Shown here piece after piece: positions 3,392-9,148 of a stretch of 16,352 nucleotides of DNA (position 1 is its first letter; the number at the start of each line of letters is the position of its first letter). The position numbers and the translations under genes are program-made. The stretch lies in IMG/VR virus record IMGVR_UViG_2703718777_000029, positions 1-16,352 of that record; one strand, written 5' to 3'. The notes beneath the pieces were generated by a model. The model did not search any database. It was not told the origin of the DNA and saw nothing but the letters and a program-made list of their open reading frames with translations. Source of the stretch: a virus. Lineage: Duplodnaviria > Heunggongvirae > Uroviricota > Caudoviricetes.

Positions 3392-3436
3392 TCTTTAACG
3401 AGGTAATACCCAAATTTAGGGTGTTGCTCAATTCCG

Positions 3437-3832
3437 TTACCGAGTTGCTAATTTGCAACTCGCTTTTTCGTACTTACTGATAGTGATCTCGACCTTCCCT
3501 TCCGGGATAACCGGTCCCCACTCCACCAGCATTCTTTTCACCTGACTGTCGTCTTCCCACACACCCGCGTGGGTCAGGGCGTCAAACAGCGCCTTGTTAT
3601 AGTTGTCCAGATCGCGGATCCGGTTATCCGGAGGAAACAACACGATCTCCACTGATGCAGGTGCCGACGTTGGTTTTGGCAGACGACGTAACTGCTCAAC
3701 TATTGCTGCACACGCCGCGCTCTGAAATTTTCGCCCCGCCTCGCTTATCAGGCTCTTACCAGCAAATGCCACTTTGTTGGGGTGTCGCCAGTACATGTTC
3801 ACGCTGGGCGGAAAAGGCAGTATTAGCTTCAT
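3437..3832 (-). CDS. rusA: Holliday junction resolvase RusA, 131 aa
   Basis: MKLILPFPPSVNMYWRH... and RDLDNYNKALFDALTHAGVWEDDSQV match the RusA signature (compare E. coli RusA LPWPPSNNRYYRH / [26 protein letters not shown]). Start ATG overlaps the Dam stop (ATGA at 3829-3832). Confidence 0.9.
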   Translation of the reverse strand: MKLILPFPPSVNMYWRHPNKVAFAGKSLISEAGRKFQSAACAAIVEQLRRLPKPTSAPASVEIVLFPPDNRIRDLDNYNKALFDALTHAGVWEDDSQVKRMLVEWGPVIPEGKVEITISKYEKASCKLATR

Positions 3833-5407: not shown

Positions 5408-5628
5408 GCAGCACCTCCGAGATGCTTCATGTTTTTTCCGGAGCAAAAGGCTATAAGCGGCATACTGATGCGGTAATTACGGCCCAGCGGTTCACAAATC
5501 ACCTTCTGACATTCACGGTCAACCAGGCTAACACGTAGAACATGCCCTGCAGGTGTGGTGTACCACTGACCGGGGCGAGGACAACGGAAAGTCTGATTGG
5601 TAAACCGTTTGAAAATATTCCGGATCAT
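5404..5628 (-). CDS. Hypothetical small protein, 74 aa
   Basis: ATG at 5628 preceded by AAGGGGG and overlapping the Rha stop (ATGA); its stop overlaps the O-like ATG (ATGA). No recognisable domain. Confidence 0.5.
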   Translation of the reverse strand: MIRNIFKRFTNQTFRCPRPGQWYTTPAGHVLRVSLVDRECQKVICEPLGRNYRISMPLIAFCSGKNMKHLGGAA

Positions 5629-6773
5629 TTACGCCCCCTTACCTCTGAAGAGTTCAGCGACGAATGAATAAGACGGGCAAGAAATGCCGCATCGTTAATT
5701 CGGTCATACAGACTTACAGCCAGCGGTGATTCAACTTTTGCCAACATAGGATAAAGCTGCTGCAGCCAGACCTGATGAATTGATGAAATGTAGGAATAGA
5801 GAACGTTGGCGTTATGTGCAACGTCGCTCGGTACAGAGGGCTTTGAAAGCTGTTTCTCCATCTGGTTAAAGGCATTGATGTATGCCTCTTTGAACTGGGC
5901 AGCACGTTTACCAGTGAAACCCATAGCAAGAAACGCAAAGCCGTCGCGGGTTATTTGATAGCAAGGTAGTTTGCGGCCTGTGCAATCGGTGTAATCACTC
6001 ACCGAAAAATTGCGGGCAGTGAATGATGCGGAACATTCAAGCGTGCGGATCTTTTTCAGTACATCGTCATGACGTTTGGAGAAGAAGTTGGCAACAGCCA
6101 GGGATGAAGTAACAGCCTGACCATCAACGATGGCAATTTCAGGTTGAGTGAGGGTTGGGATCGTAGCCATGATGGCAGCCTCCGTTGACTGTGGAAAACT
6201 TCCACCACCGGAGCTGCGAAACTCACTGGTGGCAGACTGAACAGGGTTCGCAGTACCGGCGTCAACGGAGACCGGCGAGCCTTTCGGCTCCCCTGCCCAG
6301 CCCACCATAATTCTGGCGTGCGTGAGCGCGGACGATAAAAAAGACGCTGGCGCGTCGTATATCGCCGTTGACAATTCCGGGCTGCGACCCCCGGCACCCG
6401 CTTTATAAGGTGCCTGAACAGTGTAACGTCCCGGAATTCCAGAATCAATATGCTGGTGGTCCTTCACACTCAACAAAATCACGCCTGAATTTCCACAAAG
6501 GACTAAAGCACTCATGTGGGTAGTCTTTGCGAAGATAGATAACGCGCTGTGTTTCTGGCTCCCAACGAATAACATGAACATAAAGTCCTCTTCCGTCACG
6601 AAACCAGCGGTTAAGTTCCTGCACAACTCGCCCCCCACAGTCAGGTAAAGTTCTCTGTGGTTACTTACAGCCAGGTGATTTGGTAATCTGCATTCATGCC
6701 GTAACAACAGGTGTTCAGAGACGCTGACCACCAGCTGTTGCGACAAACGGTTATTTGCCGTTAAACTGTTCAT
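5625..6773 (-). CDS. Rha-family phage regulatory protein; Rha domain begins at the internal ATG at 6170 (181 aa), while the open frame continues upstream to 6773 (382 aa)
   Basis: MATIPTLTQPEIAIVDGQAVTSSLAVANFFSKRHDDVLKKIRTLE... is a typical Rha N-terminus, and the ATG at 6170 has GGAGG 8 nt upstream. The frame stays open for 201 further codons upstream to an ATG at 6773 that overlaps the CII-like stop (ATGA). The 6171-6773 portion has no recognised domain. Confidence 0.65.
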   Translation of the reverse strand: MNSLTANNRLSQQLVVSVSEHLLLRHECRLPNHLAVSNHRELYLTVGGELCRNLTAGFVTEEDFMFMLFVGSQKHSALSIFAKTTHMSALVLCGNSGVILLSVKDHQHIDSGIPGRYTVQAPYKAGAGGRSPELSTAIYDAPASFLSSALTHARIMVGWAGEPKGSPVSVDAGTANPVQSATSEFRSSGGGSFPQSTEAAIMATIPTLTQPEIAIVDGQAVTSSLAVANFFSKRHDDVLKKIRTLECSASFTARNFSVSDYTDCTGRKLPCYQITRDGFAFLAMGFTGKRAAQFKEAYINAFNQMEKQLSKPSVPSDVAHNANVLYSYISSIHQVWLQQLYPMLAKVESPLAVSLYDRINDAAFLARLIHSSLNSSEVRGRK

Positions 6774-7610: not shown

Positions 7611-7676
7611 AATGTAGGATATCCAACATACCAATGTCAAGAATCCTACATAGTCATGTGGTAGGATTGCCTACAT
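7611..7676. promoter_or_regulatory. Right operator/promoter region: three operator sites and a PR-like promoter
   Basis: Site 1 ATGTAGGATATCCAACAT (7612-7629) is a near-palindrome. Site 2 (7634-7651) and site 3 (7659-7676) share the half-site ATCC(T/A)ACAT. On the minus strand, TTGACA (7640..7635), 18-nt spacer, TACATT (7616..7611) overlaps site 1 and would drive cro. Confidence 0.6.
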
Positions 7677-8328
7677 GATGAACATGAGTGATCGTATTCG
7701 CCAAAGGCGAAAAGAACTGAACCTGACACAACAAGCACTGGCTGATTTGACTGGTGTGAACCGTGTCACGGTTACTGGATGGGAAAAGGACGACTACCAA
7801 CCAAATGGAGCCAACCTTCAAGCCCTAGCCAACGCACTTAAATGCGATCCTCTGTGGCTTGTTAGCGGAAAAGGCTCGCCTGAACCAAAGATAAATCTAA
7901 AACCTGAAATATTCGCAGTTAAAAAAGTCCCCCTCATCTCGTGGGTTCAGGCGGGTTCATGGACAATGACGGAGCCTGGTGTCAGGAAAGAAGATGCTGA
8001 AGAGTGGGTTTATACTACCGCCCTTGTATCAGAAATGGCATTTGCACTACGGGTCCGTGGTGATTCAATGACCAATCCCCTCGGCTCACCATCGATACCA
8101 GAAGGTTCTATCGTTATCGTAGAGCCAGATATTATTGATACAGAGTGTATTAACGGAAAAATCGTTGTTGCCCATATCAATGGTGGGCAAGAAGCGACAC
8201 TCAAAAAATTTGTTGAGGACTGGCCGAACAGGTATCTCGTCCCACTAAATCCTAACTATAAAACTATTGAATGCGGTGAGAACTGCAGAATAGTTGGTCT
8301 TGTCAAACAAGTAATAATGGATTTTTGA
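7675..8328 (+). CDS. CI-like prophage repressor (XRE-family HTH plus S24 LexA-like autopeptidase domain), 217 aa
   Basis: N-terminal HTH (LNLTQQALADLTGVNRVTVTGWE); C-terminal S24 peptidase signature with GDSM serine (RVRGDSMTNP) and a downstream lysine (EATLKKF). No SD before the ATG cluster at 7675/7678/7684, so the mRNA may be leaderless as for lambda cI. Confidence 0.85.
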   Translation: MMNMSDRIRQRRKELNLTQQALADLTGVNRVTVTGWEKDDYQPNGANLQALANALKCDPLWLVSGKGSPEPKINLKPEIFAVKKVPLISWVQAGSWTMTEPGVRKEDAEEWVYTTALVSEMAFALRVRGDSMTNPLGSPSIPEGSIVIVEPDIIDTECINGKIVVAHINGGQEATLKKFVEDWPNRYLVPLNPNYKTIECGENCRIVGLVKQVIMDF

Positions 8329-8350
8329 CACATCTTCCTCACTATCGCAA

Positions 8351-8375
8351 AACCGGGGTATCCCCGGTTTTTTTA
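8351..8375 (+). terminator. Intrinsic terminator after the cI-like gene (bidirectional shape)
   Basis: AACCGGGG-tat-CCCCGGTT hairpin followed by TTTTTTT and preceded by an A-run. Confidence 0.7.
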
Positions 8376-8390
8376 TGAGCCTATCTTTTT

Positions 8391-8444
8391 ATGTAGGATA
8401 ACCAACATAAACTCTTGACACTCACATGTTGGATATCCTACATT
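8391..8444 (+). promoter_or_regulatory. Left operator/promoter region: two operator sites and a PL-like promoter
   Basis: ATGTAGGATAACCAACAT (8391-8408) and ATGTTGGATATCCTACAT (8426-8443); the latter is the exact reverse complement of right-side site 1. TTGACA (8415-8420), 18-nt spacer, TACATT (8439-8444) mirrors the PR-like promoter. Confidence 0.6.
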
Positions 8445-8602
8445 TGTTTTTAGAGTTGTGGTGAATGCGCAGGCTGATGCGCGAAAGACATTGCAGCTAT
8501 TACGGAAAAGAGCTGTTCGGCGGGGCAATTAAATGCCCGTGAGAGTCTGAAATAACCGCAAGCCGGAGATCAGCACCGATCACCACAACAGCCACTGCTT
8601 TG

Positions 8603-8650
8603 GCGGTACCAGTTTGTACACTTGCTTCCGGCTGGTACCGCTCTTTTTAC
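8603..8650 (+). terminator. Terminator-like hairpin in the early-left leader (possible attenuator or end of a short leader RNA)
   Basis: Perfect 10-bp inverted repeat GCGGTACCAG (8603-8612) / CTGGTACCGC (8632-8641) with a 19-nt loop, followed by TCTTTTTAC. The sequence CGCTCTTTTTA spanning the 3' arm resembles a boxA element. Confidence 0.4.
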
Positions 8651-8785
8651 AAAACAGAGAAGAGCATCACCGGACGACGGGCTCATAACCCAATCCACCC
8701 GGGCGGCTGCCACCGCAGGTGTTCTTCTCTGTTTTGTGGAGAAACCAACCGACCTTGCAGGGTCGATATGATGAGGAGCAGCAAA

Positions 8786-9148
8786 ATGGCTAGCGAACGC
8801 AGTACTGATGTGCAGGCATTTATCGGGGAGTTGGACGGCGGCGTATTTGAAACCAAAATCGGCGCTGTTCTCAGTGAAGTCGCTTCCGGTGTGATGAACA
8901 CGAAAACCAAAGGTAAGGTCTCGCTCAACCTGGAAATCGAACCGTTTGATGAGAACCGTGTGAAAATCAAACACAAACTCTCATATGTTCGCCCGACTAA
9001 CCGCGGGAAAATTTCCGAAGAAGACACCACCGAAACGCCGATGTATGTCAATCGCGGTGGTCGCCTGACTATTCTGCAGGAAGACCAGGGACAATTACTG
9101 ACTCTTGCCGGTGAACCTGACGGAAAACTACGCGCAGCAGGTCATTAA
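8786..9148 (+). CDS. YfdP-like early protein, 120 aa
   Basis: ATG at 8786 preceded by AGGAG at 7-nt spacing; the upstream in-frame extension to 8600 in the track has no RBS and overlaps the leader hairpin. Size and position match CPS-53 YfdP as remembered. Confidence 0.55.
   Translation: MASERSTDVQAFIGELDGGVFETKIGAVLSEVASGVMNTKTKGKVSLNLEIEPFDENRVKIKHKLSYVRPTNRGKISEEDTTETPMYVNRGGRLTILQEDQGQLLTLAGEPDGKLRAAGH

What the first reader, a model, noticed from the sequence alone, without database searches (positions are those of the whole stretch)
8446..8785. Highly structured ~340-nt leader between the PL-like promoter and the first early-left gene
No ORF with an RBS occupies this leader. It contains a small hairpin GGGCA-attaaa-TGCCC (8523-8538), a perfect 10-bp GC-rich hairpin followed by a U tract (8603-8650) whose 3' side reads CGCTCTTTTTA (boxA-like), and a perfect 15-bp long-range inverted repeat ACAAAACAGAGAAGA (8649-8663) / TCTTCTCTGTTTTGT (8723-8737) enclosing a GC-rich 59-nt segment just upstream of the yfdP-like RBS. 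There is no N-like gene in the window. This looks like a cis-acting RNA control element (attenuator, or a protein-independent antitermination RNA in the manner of HK022 put) or a discrete small RNA ending at the hairpin.
Basis: seen in the sequence. Interest (0 to 1): 0.55.

Follow-up and report, generated by a model that had tools for sequence, protein, structure and literature searches.

The report
DicF-type structured leader of PL operon
The 340-base untranslated stretch is a real, conserved structured RNA: a relative of the prophage small RNA DicF that ends at a terminator hairpin, followed by a long helix of the kind RNase III cuts, and that helix is capped by an undescribed, almost invariant hairpin resembling a tRNA anticodon arm.

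Summary
The leader folds far better than shuffles (z -5.2), and the helices covary across phages of about 15 enterobacterial genera.

It is not a put-like or nut-like antiterminator. It is a mosaic of RNA modules homologous to the dicF region of the PL-like dicBF operon of E. coli K-12 prophage Qin.
- **5' domain, about 8451-8591.** It starts at the predicted PL transcription start and is closed by a 10-bp long-range helix.
- **Terminator hairpin, 8602-8648.** It is the positional and sequence counterpart of DicF, but it lacks the canonical DicF seed and fails the Rfam DicF model.
- **Long helix, 8649-8668 / 8718-8737.** It sits where K-12 has helices cut by RNase III on both sides of dicF.

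The helix is capped by a three-way junction. Its core, ACGGGCUCAUAACCCAAUC, is almost invariant and shares 13 nt with the initiator-tRNA anticodon arm. It has no Rfam family. Diverged copies occur in the phage P1 ban operon and, with a CCA 3' end, in Klebsiella phage tRNA arrays.

The likely mechanism is a leaky terminator that yields an RNA of about 200 nt, plus RNase III processing of read-through transcripts. The function of the cap is unknown.

The parts
8349..8377 (+). Intrinsic terminator of the cI-like repressor gene (AAAACCGGGG-UAU-CCCCGGUUUU plus U run). It marks the upstream limit of the PL region.
   Evidence: Perfect 10-bp inverted repeat 8349-8358 / 8362-8371. The repressor CDS 7675-8328 carries HTH_3 and Peptidase_S24 domains.
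8391..8444 (+). PL-like promoter: -35 TTGACA at 8415-8420 and -10 TACATT at 8439-8444. It is flanked by an 18-bp operator palindrome. The start is inferred at about 8450-8452.
   Evidence: Promoter scan gives 10 of 12 matches. Palindrome at 8391-8408 / 8426-8443. Homology to phages of other immunity types begins exactly at 8452 (query position 123).
8455..8589 (+). 5' domain of the leader RNA. A 10-bp long-range helix, GUUGUGGUGA (8455-8464) with UCACCACAAC (8580-8589), encloses hairpins at 8467-8482, 8493-8516 and 8522-8538.
   Evidence: Minimum-free-energy folds. The same closing helix is predicted in the ST64B, Kp4866-6 and Eeyore leaders. The 5' end aligns with the K-12 sequence that follows dicF (E 0.011).
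8590..8601 (+). Single-stranded stretch in the position of the DicF 5' seed. It reads AGCCACUGCUUU, not the canonical UUUCUGGUGACG.
   Evidence: Alignments. Relatives carry other variable sequences here, such as UGCUGUGUGUAGUCUU and UUGCUGUCUUUG.
8602..8648 (+). DicF-homologous terminator stem-loop (13 bp, with a perfect 10-bp core) plus the U tract UCUUUUU. It is the probable 3' end of an RNA of about 200 nt.
   Evidence: It matches K-12 dicF at 36 of 51 positions (E 0.004). At least 8 different covarying stem sequences are found in homologues, each followed by a U run. The phiNP allele gives a weak Rfam DicF hit of 20.5 bits.
8649..8737 (+). Three-way-junction element.
- P1 long helix: 8649-8668 with 8718-8737 (the fold extends it to 8644-8648 with 8738-8742).
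- P2: 8670-8676 with 8696-8702, then GGG/CCC at 8679-8681 / 8689-8691, with the loop CUCAUAA at 8682-8688.
- P3: 8703-8706 with 8713-8716.
- Predicted RNase III cuts: about 8660-8664 and 8722-8726.
   Evidence: Covariation counts. Covariance model R1 scores 110.9 bits on the + strand and 42.7 bits on the antisense strand. z -6.9. The RNase III prediction is an inference from the positions of the K-12 cuts.
8738..8788 (+). Conserved GGAGAA; a small hairpin at 8750-8765 with a U.G-closed UGCA loop; Shine-Dalgarno GAGGAG at 8773-8778; yfdP ATG at 8786-8788.
   Evidence: Sequence. Alignments. RefSeq yfdP annotation.

Best explanation
The leader is the non-coding 'DicF-type' module set that many enterobacterial temperate phages carry at the head of the repressor-controlled early-left operon. 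I propose the following sequence of events.

1. When the repressor is removed, transcription starts at about 8451.
2. The nascent RNA folds into a closed 5' domain.
3. Most polymerases stop at the intrinsic terminator (8602-8648). This gives a stable structured RNA of about 200 nt. It is the counterpart of the 190-nt DicF precursor, and its exposed pre-hairpin stretch is allele-specific.
4. Polymerases that read through synthesise the 20-25-bp helix P1.
5. RNase III cuts P1, as it does the helices on both sides of dicF in K-12.

The cut would have three consequences:
- It gives the small RNA an alternative 3' end.
- It gives the yfdP mRNA a new 5' end about 60 nt before its AUG.
- It frees the cap of about 60 nt as a separate RNA.

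The net effect would be that termination plus processing set how much early-left message is made, and uncouple its stability from that of the small RNA.

**Shown here:**
- the structures and their covariation
- the homology and the positional equivalence to dicF
- the orientation on the + strand

**Inferred:**
- the transcription start
- termination efficiency
- RNase III cleavage in this phage
- any trans-acting role
For: **Homology to the dicF region**
- The hairpin aligns with the dicF 3' half, and the leader's 5' end aligns with the K-12 sequence after dicF.
- In Stx2c phage LC727876, the 75 nt that precede dicF in K-12 (H147) abut the segment equal to window 8581-8800 (H19).
- Phage P1 carries an annotated 'dicF-like region' behind its C1-controlled Pban promoter.

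**Terminator**
- It is conserved as a structure, with at least 8 stem variants, each followed by a U run.

**P1 helix**
- 20 pairs, 95% of cells paired, 6 pairs with compensatory changes.
- G.U pairs and the difference between 111 and 43 bits fix the + strand.

**RNase III precedent in K-12**
- The 190-nt DicF 5' end requires RNase III. It maps to about L129 2746, inside the 3' strand of a helix of about 22 bp.
- The 72-nt DicF 3' end comes from RNase III cleavage of read-through RNA. It maps about 14 nt past the U run, inside a 21-bp helix that starts right after dicF and ends at the dicB ribosome-binding site. This is the same position as P1 here.

**Context**
- The arrangement repressor, then a 600-1000-nt non-coding leader, then yfdP-yfdQ-yfdR recurs in Salmonella ST64B, Citrobacter phiNP and the Escherichia phages LLS and Eeyore. 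The unannotated Klebsiella phage Kp4866-6 shows the same leader and yfdP start in sequence.
- No N-like protein is encoded.
Against: - There is no transcript or cleavage data for this phage or for any yfdP-type leader.
- The Rfam DicF model does not match the window, even at E <= 10 in a 600-nt search.
- The canonical DicF seed is absent. A crude duplex test shows no better-than-random pairing with the ftsZ ribosome-binding region. A DicF-like trans function therefore cannot be assumed.
- The hairpin loop is long (15-19 nt) and the U tract is interrupted, so termination efficiency is uncertain.
- A plain RNase III site would not need an almost invariant 19-nt cap. The explanation is therefore incomplete.
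- The K-12 helices are not matched by model R1. The equivalence rests on position, helix geometry and short sequence similarity.
Confidence: 0.6

Rival explanations
1. The functional unit is the cap itself. It would be a tRNA-like RNA of about 60-70 nt presenting a CAU 'anticodon' loop. RNase III would excise it from early-left leaders, and tRNA-type processing would excise it from late tRNA arrays. It would act in trans, for example as a decoy for an anticodon-directed nuclease or tRNA-binding enzyme, or as a regulator of initiation. This is compatible with the best explanation and adds a function to it.
For: - The core ACGGG-N-UCAU-NN-CCCAAUC is almost invariant from Escherichia to Erwinia, Mixta, phage P1 and Klebsiella phages, while P1 and P3 vary freely.
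- 13 nt are identical to the initiator-tRNA anticodon arm.
- The invariant loop positions are exactly U33 and C34-A35-U36.
- Class B copies sit 6 nt after a tRNA. They have a 6-bp GGCCUG/CAGGCC stem and an A/G-CCA 3' end.
- The K-12 RNase III cuts leave about 6-8 bp on the cap side. The excised class A RNA would therefore have the class B architecture (inference).
- Sister modules in phiNP and Kp4866-6 are capped by T-arm-like hairpins.
Against: - ARAGORN does not accept it as a tRNA in bacterial mode or in mitochondrial mode at default stringency. The Rfam tRNA model gives no match at E <= 10 for the class B copy, and none was listed for the window.
- Position 37 is U in some variants (CUCAUUA, CUCAUUC), which is unlike real tRNAs.
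- Only 3 bp of the anticodon stem are kept.
- No partner protein co-occurs.
- Nothing shows that the cap accumulates.
Confidence: 0.2
2. A protein-independent processive antiterminator RNA in the manner of HK022 put. The structured leader RNA would bind the elongating polymerase and let it read through the hairpin terminator and downstream terminators.
For: - The phage lacks an N-like gene.
- A terminator sits in the leader.
- The first 140 nt of the transcript are highly structured.
Against: - There is no similarity to putL or putR anywhere in the leader.
- Rfam has no put model, so only a sequence comparison was possible.
- There is only one copy of the conserved core in the window, and none in the PR operon.
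- The 5' domain is mosaic and is replaced by unrelated sequence in relatives, whereas an antiterminator should be the conserved part.
- The most conserved element lies after the terminator, not before it.
- In L089 the promoter is followed directly by the three-way junction, with no terminator.
Confidence: 0.07
3. A regulated attenuator. An alternative fold, driven by a ligand, a protein or translation of a leader peptide, would decide whether the terminator hairpin forms.
For: - A terminator lies ahead of the first gene.
- Short ORFs exist, for example 8465-8542.
- A 7-nt complementarity between AGCCGGA (about 8561-8567) and the terminator loop and 3' arm was seen by inspection.
Against: - The terminator stems covary among homologues, with no matching covariation upstream.
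- The upstream region is mosaic.
- The short ORFs lack a Shine-Dalgarno sequence, and the peptide read from the shared AUG in the K-12 counterpart is unrelated (read by inspection from the sequences).
- No riboswitch family matches.
Confidence: 0.08
4. The stretch is coding. YfdP would start upstream, at TTG 8600, or small proteins would be encoded, as some phage records annotate.
For: - The yfdP frame is open from 8600. It stays open for more than 80 codons in E. coli-type leaders and in ST64B.
- Several phage records annotate 'hypothetical proteins' here.
Against: - The frame is closed 5-50 codons upstream of the ATG in 6 of 23 homologues.
- The alignment lengths differ by 1-4, 23, 24 and 27 nt.
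- The substitutions are compensatory in helices.
- K-12 yfdP homology starts at 8767.
- A good Shine-Dalgarno sequence lies 7 nt before ATG 8786.
- RefSeq annotates ATG 8786.
Confidence: 0.03

Closest known systems
dicF region of the dicBF operon, cryptic lambdoid prophage Qin of E. coli K-12 (DicF sRNA, Rfam RF00039)
   Same: - A PL-like promoter under a cI/C2-type repressor.
- A long non-coding stretch.
- A terminator stem-loop with the 5' arm UUUGGCGGUAYCAG plus a U run (36 of 51 identical).
- An RNA unit of about 190-200 nt.
- Long helices directly flanking the small RNA, which RNase III cuts in K-12.
- A shared GUGGUGAAUGCGG motif.
   Different: - The canonical DicF seed is absent.
- The Rfam model is not matched (window: no hit; K-12 control: 76.7 bits).
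- The unit is transcribed directly from PL rather than cut out of a ydfABC transcript.
- The downstream gene is yfdP, not dicB.
- The helix after the terminator carries the invariant three-way-junction cap, which K-12 lacks.
HK022 putL/putR antiterminator RNAs
   Same: - An N-less lambdoid phage.
- A structured RNA at the start of the early-left transcript.
   Different: - No sequence similarity.
- put is a two-stem RNA of about 70 nt, present after both PL and PR. Here there is a single, different architecture, and the conserved part lies downstream of the terminator.
Lambda N-leader RNase III site and T7 intercistronic RNase III sites (from established knowledge, not tested here)
   Same: A long hairpin between the promoter-proximal RNA and the first early gene, whose cleavage alters the 5' end of the message.
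   Different: No nutL, boxA, boxB or N. The cap has a conserved sequence.
Prophage anti-sRNAs AgvB and AsxR (Tree et al. 2014)
   Same: Family logic: a conserved 3' terminator with a variable 5' region. The GcvB-target heptamer CACAACA is present at 8584-8590.
   Different: - They lie at the PR' moron site, not at PL.
- The sequence is unrelated.
- There is no Rfam AgvB hit.
- A duplex test with GcvB was no better than shuffles.
tRNA and tRNA-like RNAs processed from phage operons (initiator tRNA anticodon arm; P1/P7 C4 RNA cut by RNase P, from established knowledge)
   Same: - A 7-nt loop CUCAUAA on three G-C pairs, identical over 13 nt to tRNA-fMet.
- Class B copies have an acceptor-like stem plus NCCA and sit in tRNA arrays.
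   Different: - No cloverleaf. tRNA detectors reject it.
- The window copy has a 20-25-bp helix instead of an acceptor stem, and no CCA.

Membership tests
DicF sRNA (Rfam RF00039) | Scores at or above the family gathering threshold (48 bits) with the Rfam covariance model | tested here: not met
   No DicF match in the window at the gathering threshold or at E <= 10. The phiNP allele scores 20.5 bits. The K-12 control scores 76.7 bits. The P1 'dicF-like region' and the Shigella 75/02 allele are also missed.
DicF sRNA (Rfam RF00039) | Lies in the repressor-controlled PL-type operon of a lambdoid prophage | tested here: met
   The promoter and operators lie directly after the cI-like gene. Compare dicA-dicBp-dicF.
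DicF sRNA (Rfam RF00039) | Rho-independent terminator stem-loop homologous to that of DicF | tested here: met
   36 of 51 identical, E 0.004 in a 1.3-kb search. Positional equivalence through the mosaic phage LC727876. The stem covaries.
DicF sRNA (Rfam RF00039) | DicF seed sequences that pair with ftsZ, xylR and pykA | tested here: not met
   UUUCUGGUGACG is replaced by AGCCACUGCUUU. In the duplex test with the ftsZ ribosome-binding region, 251 of 300 shuffles did as well as the window allele, against 24 of 300 for K-12 DicF. This is a crude test.
DicF sRNA (Rfam RF00039) | [quoted passage not shown] | not testable with these tools
   Only the substrate geometry could be shown: a 20-25-bp helix at the equivalent position.
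HK022 put antiterminator RNA | Sequence or structure similarity to putL or putR | tested here: not met
   blastn-short of both put regions against the window gives nothing in 8446-8785. No Rfam put model exists.
HK022 put antiterminator RNA | Copies downstream of both early promoters | tested here: not met
   Model R1 and the core pattern each find a single locus in the 16-kb window, which also covers the PR operon.
HK022 put antiterminator RNA | Suppresses termination through the beta' zinc-binding domain | not testable with these tools
   This needs in vitro transcription or rpoC mutants.
Lambda-type nut site (boxA + boxB + N) | Conserved boxA and an N-like arginine-rich protein | tested here: not met
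   CGCUCUUUUUA occurs only in the window-type allele. There is no N-like gene in the annotation or in Pfam.
tRNA | Cloverleaf recognised by tRNA detectors | tested here: not met
   ARAGORN in bacterial and mitochondrial modes finds nothing except spurious opposite-strand calls at a relaxed threshold. The Rfam tRNA model gives no match at E <= 10 for class B and none for the window.
tRNA | 7-nt anticodon loop with U33 and a purine at position 37; acceptor stem plus NCCA | tested here: inconclusive
   The window loop CUCAUAA fits. Variants with CUCAUUA or CUCAUUC have U37. The acceptor-like stem and NCCA are present only in class B.
AgvB/AsxR anti-sRNAs | Conserved 3' domain of about 42 nt, at the PR' moron site | tested here: not met
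   The location differs. The published sequences are unrelated. There is no Rfam hit.

The most novel reading that the evidence does not exclude
The almost invariant cap would be a previously undescribed tRNA(CAU)-anticodon-arm mimic used by temperate enterobacterial phages. RNase III would excise it as a three-way-junction RNA of about 60-70 nt from early-left leaders (this window, ST64B, phiNP, the P1 ban operon). tRNA-type processing would excise it from late tRNA arrays in Klebsiella phages, where it carries an NCCA end. It would act in trans on a host factor that reads the CAU anticodon loop: an anticodon nuclease or toxin, MetRS or TilS, or the initiating 30S subunit.
Probability: 0.15. 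Interest if true: 0.8.

Novelty: new variant of a known kind. Interest (0 to 1): 0.5.

Why it matters
Parts of this leader match 2995 of 5426 complete E. coli genomes, mostly the 3' portion that holds the hairpin and the three-way junction. The junction also occurs in prophages of about 15 other enterobacterial genera. It is unannotated or annotated as 'hypothetical protein'.

Recognising it as a DicF-type module has three uses:
- It explains how N-less yfdP-type phages head their early-left operon.
- It extends the DicF family to alleles with different seeds, which the Rfam model misses.
- It gives a testable prediction for RNase III processing.

K-12 lacks the three-way junction at megablast sensitivity, which may be why it escaped K-12-based RNA mapping. 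Its invariant initiator-tRNA-like loop, and its reappearance with a CCA end inside phage tRNA arrays, point to a sequence-specific function that is not yet known.

Tried and rejected
- **AgvB-like GcvB sponge.** This idea came from CACAACA at 8584-8590 next to a terminator. AgvB lies at PR' and its sequence is unrelated. There is no Rfam hit. A duplex test against GcvB was no better than shuffles: 218 of 500 did as well.
- **put.** No similarity.
- **Real tRNA.** Rejected by ARAGORN, by the Rfam tRNA model and by the mitochondrial mode of ARAGORN.
- **Hammerhead ribozyme.** CUGAUGA occurs in class B only. It is not conserved in class A, and there is no Rfam hit.
- **ftsZ antisense function.** Not supported for this allele.
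- **Cap loop pairing in cis with the downstream start codon region.** Only the trivial AUG is shared across the different downstream genes (inspection).
- **Alternative pairing of the terminator 3' arm with 8660-8676** (I4; 71% complementary). It is not conserved in alleles that read CCGCCCUUUUU.
- **CM-based alignment A3.** It mixed sense and antisense hits and was not used for counts.
- **Papers not held.** Faubladier and Bouché 1994, the P1 genome paper and King 2011 could not be read. What they say about dicF-like sequences or put-like RNAs could not be checked.
- **Hfq-CRAC sRNA list for O157 Sakai.** I did not map the leader onto it, because I had no coordinates for the element in that genome.
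Full report
**1. Setting**

The window is a lambdoid prophage, 100% identical over the query to E. coli O157:H7 strain NE122 and to an Stx2c-converting phage. Gene order around the finding is as follows.
- On the minus strand: cro-like, YmfL and Rha/Ash genes.
- On the plus strand: a cI-like repressor at 7675-8328 (HTH_3 plus Peptidase_S24), the leader, then yfdP (ATG 8786), yfdQ (DUF2303), yfdR and Ea22-like genes.

No N-like protein is annotated or found by Pfam.

**2.

- **Promoter.** TTGACA, 18 nt, TACATT at 8415-8444, 10 of 12 matches. A twin on the PR side lies at 7640-7611. An 18-bp operator palindrome flanks the promoter.
- **Small hairpin.** 8523-8538.
- **10-bp GC hairpin.** 8603-8612 / 8632-8641, followed by UCUUUUU.
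- **15-bp inverted repeat.** 8649-8663 / 8723-8737. All three are present as described.
- **Stability.** The leader folds at -135.5 kcal/mol, z -5.2. The element 8640-8748 alone folds at -49.2 kcal/mol, z -6.9.
- **Rfam.** No family matches inside the leader, even at E <= 10.

**3. The leader is mosaic**

BLAST against phages and 5426 E. coli genomes shows four segments.
- 8330-8451 is immunity-specific.
- Homology to mEp460-type phages starts at 8452, which is the predicted transcription start.
- A third boundary lies at 8581-8601.
- Most matches among the 2995 genomes cover only 8581/8601-8800.

K-12 shares only 8767 onward, which is the start of yfdP.

**4. Relatives and covariation**

The annotated phages Salmonella ST64B, Citrobacter phiNP, and Escherichia LLS and Eeyore all have a repressor, a 600-1000-nt non-coding leader, and then yfdP-yfdQ-yfdR. 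The unannotated Klebsiella phage Kp4866-6 shows the same leader and yfdP start in sequence. Their alignment shows a common 3' architecture:
- a CA-rich stretch
- a variable single-stranded stretch
- a GC hairpin plus a U run
- a long helix enclosing a conserved core and a variable hairpin
- GGAGAA
- a small hairpin
- the Shine-Dalgarno sequence and the ATG

A pattern scan found more than 120 viral contigs. A genome scan found 38 contigs. About 28 of them carry the full flanking structure, and almost all of those are Enterobacterales. The non-enteric matches lack the flanks and look like chance matches.

I counted pairs on 35 distinct sequences (alignment A2), using a structure I specified.
- 92.6% of cells pair, against 40-53% in slid registers.
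- Ten pairs show compensatory changes, in 57 cells.
- The covariation score is 0.175 against 0.093 for shuffles, and 0 of 500 shuffles reach it.
- P1 has six covarying pairs.
- P2 covaries at 29-57 and 31-55. Class B copies add a perfect 7-bp version, CCUGAUG/CAUCAGG.

The covariance model R1 scores 110.9 bits on the + strand and 42.7 bits on the antisense strand. This fits transcription from PL.

The terminator hairpin is likewise conserved as a structure. It has at least eight different stem sequences, each followed by a U run.

**5. What it is: a DicF-type region**

- The phiNP allele gives a weak Rfam DicF hit of 20.5 bits.
- The window hairpin aligns with the 3' half of K-12 dicF: 36 of 51 identical, including UUUGGCGGUAYCAGUUU.
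- The first 35 nt of the leader align with the sequence that follows dicF in K-12.
- In Stx2c phage LC727876, the 75 nt that precede dicF in K-12 (H147) directly abut the segment equal to window 8581-8800 (H19). The hairpin therefore occupies the dicF position.
- Other alleles with other pre-hairpin sequences and stems exist, for example in Shigella phage 75/02 Stx.
- Phage P1 carries an annotated 'dicF-like region' behind Pban.
- None of these alleles is caught by the Rfam DicF model, which scores K-12 dicF at 76.7 bits.

The window allele lacks the DicF seed, and a crude duplex test shows no pairing with ftsZ beyond chance. It is therefore a DicF relative by descent and position. It is not a demonstrable DicF by sequence model or by target.

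**6. The long helix and RNase III**

Published work on K-12 reports the following.
- A 190-nt DicF precursor has a 5' end that needs RNase III, and a 53-nt form has a 5' end that needs RNase E (Ragunathan et al.).
- Termination gives the 53-nt 3' end, and RNase III cleavage of read-through RNA gives a 72-nt form (Balasubramanian et al., citing Faubladier 1990).

I mapped these ends onto the K-12 sequence.
- The 190-nt 5' end falls at about L129 2746. This is inside the 3' strand of a helix of about 22 bp (fold).
- The 72-nt 3' end falls at about L129 2954, about 14 nt past the U run. This is inside a 21-bp helix that begins right after dicF, encloses a multi-hairpin domain, and ends at the dicB ribosome-binding site (-68.1 kcal/mol, z -4.4).

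P1 of the window has the same position and geometry. It starts at the U run, runs 20-25 bp, and ends about 50 nt before the yfdP AUG. Transferring the K-12 geometry predicts cuts near 8660-8664 and 8722-8726. This is an inference.

The leaders of the relatives contain further helices of the same type, CACAAC...GUUGUG, with other caps. The window transcript starts exactly at the 3' tail of such a module (GUUGUGGUGAAUGCG). That tail instead pairs with UCACCACAAC at 8580-8589 and closes the 5' domain. The same closure is predicted in ST64B, Kp4866-6 and Eeyore.

**7. The unexplained part: the cap**

- The core ACGGGCUCAUAACCCAAUC (8677-8695) occurs once in the window. It is almost invariant in all class A copies, while P1 and P3 vary.
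- The loop variants are CUCAUAA, CUCAUUA, CUCAUUC, UUCAUAU and GUCAUAU. Only UCAU is invariant.
- Thirteen nucleotides are identical to the anticodon arm of initiator tRNA (metY).
- R1 finds two diverged copies in the phage P1 ban operon. They lie on the strand opposite the annotated plp and upl genes. The same operon holds the dicF-like region and three tRNAs.
- Klebsiella phages carry a 71-nt 'class B' version, 6 nt after tRNA-Arg and downstream of Q. It has a GGCCUG/CAGGCC stem and an A/G-CCA 3' end.
- tRNA detectors reject all versions.

A bare RNase III site would not need such a conserved cap, so the cap has a sequence-specific role that I cannot assign. The K-12 cuts leave about 6-8 bp on the cap side. 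The excised class A RNA would therefore resemble class B. This is the basis of the 'novel case'.

**8. Rivals**

- **put-like antitermination.** There is no similarity and only a single copy. The conserved part lies after the terminator, and the 5' domain is the mosaic, replaceable part.
- **nut.** The boxA resemblance is allele-specific, and there is no N gene.
- **Regulated attenuator.** There is no covarying antiterminator and no conserved leader peptide.
- **Coding.** The frame upstream of yfdP is open in E. coli-type leaders but closed in six divergent homologues. The alignment lengths differ by numbers that are not multiples of three. The substitutions are compensatory.

**9. Verdict**

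The put and boxA ideas are not supported.

The leader is a new variant of a known kind, the DicF/dicBF-type early-left leader with RNase III-type helices. It carries an undescribed, widely distributed tRNA-anticodon-arm-like cap. All mechanistic steps beyond structure, homology and position are inferences that need transcript mapping.

Noticed in passing
window 6225-6312 (-) and 6337-6413 (-): Rfam C4 antisense RNA (78.8 bits) and isrK (56.9 bits) lie inside the ORF 5625-6773 (-), which RefSeq annotates as a 382-aa Rha-family protein. The Pfam domains (Ash, pRha) start only at residue 117. The annotated start is probably too far upstream. The PR operon appears to carry a P1/P7-type c4-antirepressor immunity module.
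   Followed up: partly
window 7640-7611 (-): A PR-like promoter has the same hexamers and spacing (TTGACA, 18 nt, TACATT) as the PL-like promoter at 8415-8444.
   Followed up: no
L168 (phage P1, AF234173) 3435-3537 and 3709-3800, + strand: Two diverged copies of the three-way-junction element (33.9 and 42.3 bits; core ACGGGKUCAUAUCCCAAUC) lie in the C1-controlled ban operon. They are on the strand opposite the annotated plp and upl CDSs. The operon also holds an annotated 'dicF-like region' and tRNA-Asn, tRNA-Thr and tRNA-Ile2. The reality of plp and upl may deserve a second look.
   Followed up: partly
L003 (Klebsiella phage GZ7) 1509-1579; also L021, L023, L045, L049, L054, L058, L067, L084, L106, L157: 'Class B' copies of the core form a 71-nt unit placed like a gene in a tRNA array downstream of Q. 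There is a 6-nt spacer after tRNA-Arg, a GGCCUG/CAGGCC stem, a perfect 7-bp P2, and an A/G-CCA 3' end. tRNA detectors do not recognise them.
   Followed up: partly
L006 (phiNP) about 1190-1316; L005 (Kp4866-6) about 1160-1300: An upstream long-helix module of the same leader family is capped by two T-arm-like hairpins (GUCUGGUUCGAUUCCAGAC and GUCCGUUCGAUUCGGAC). tRNA-part mimicry may be a general theme of these caps.
   Followed up: no
window 8600-8785: The reading frame of yfdP stays open for 62 codons upstream of ATG 8786, from TTG 8600. It stays open for more than 80 codons in many E. coli-type leaders and in ST64B, although the region is clearly a structured RNA. This explains spurious 'hypothetical protein' calls in several phage records.
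   Followed up: yes
window 8750-8765; P3 hairpins of relatives (e.g. L105, L134, L153): The small hairpin before the Shine-Dalgarno sequence, and many P3 hairpins, share a U.G-closed UGCA or GGCA tetraloop (for example GGCGGUUGCAGCCGCC). The self-complementary UGCA could allow loop-loop contacts.
   Followed up: no
L142 ('Chryseobacterium sp. 18061') and L149 ('Geobacteraceae MAG'): These contigs carry leader sequences essentially identical to enterobacterial prophages. They are probably contamination or mis-binning in the public assemblies.
   Followed up: no
L170 (Shigella phage 75/02 Stx) 2540-2600: Another DicF-like allele lies upstream of kil (pre-hairpin AUCAAUAUCCUCUUUGGCGG, stem GGCGGACAUC/GAUGUCCGCC). 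The Rfam DicF model misses it. The DicF family is broader than its current model.
   Followed up: partly
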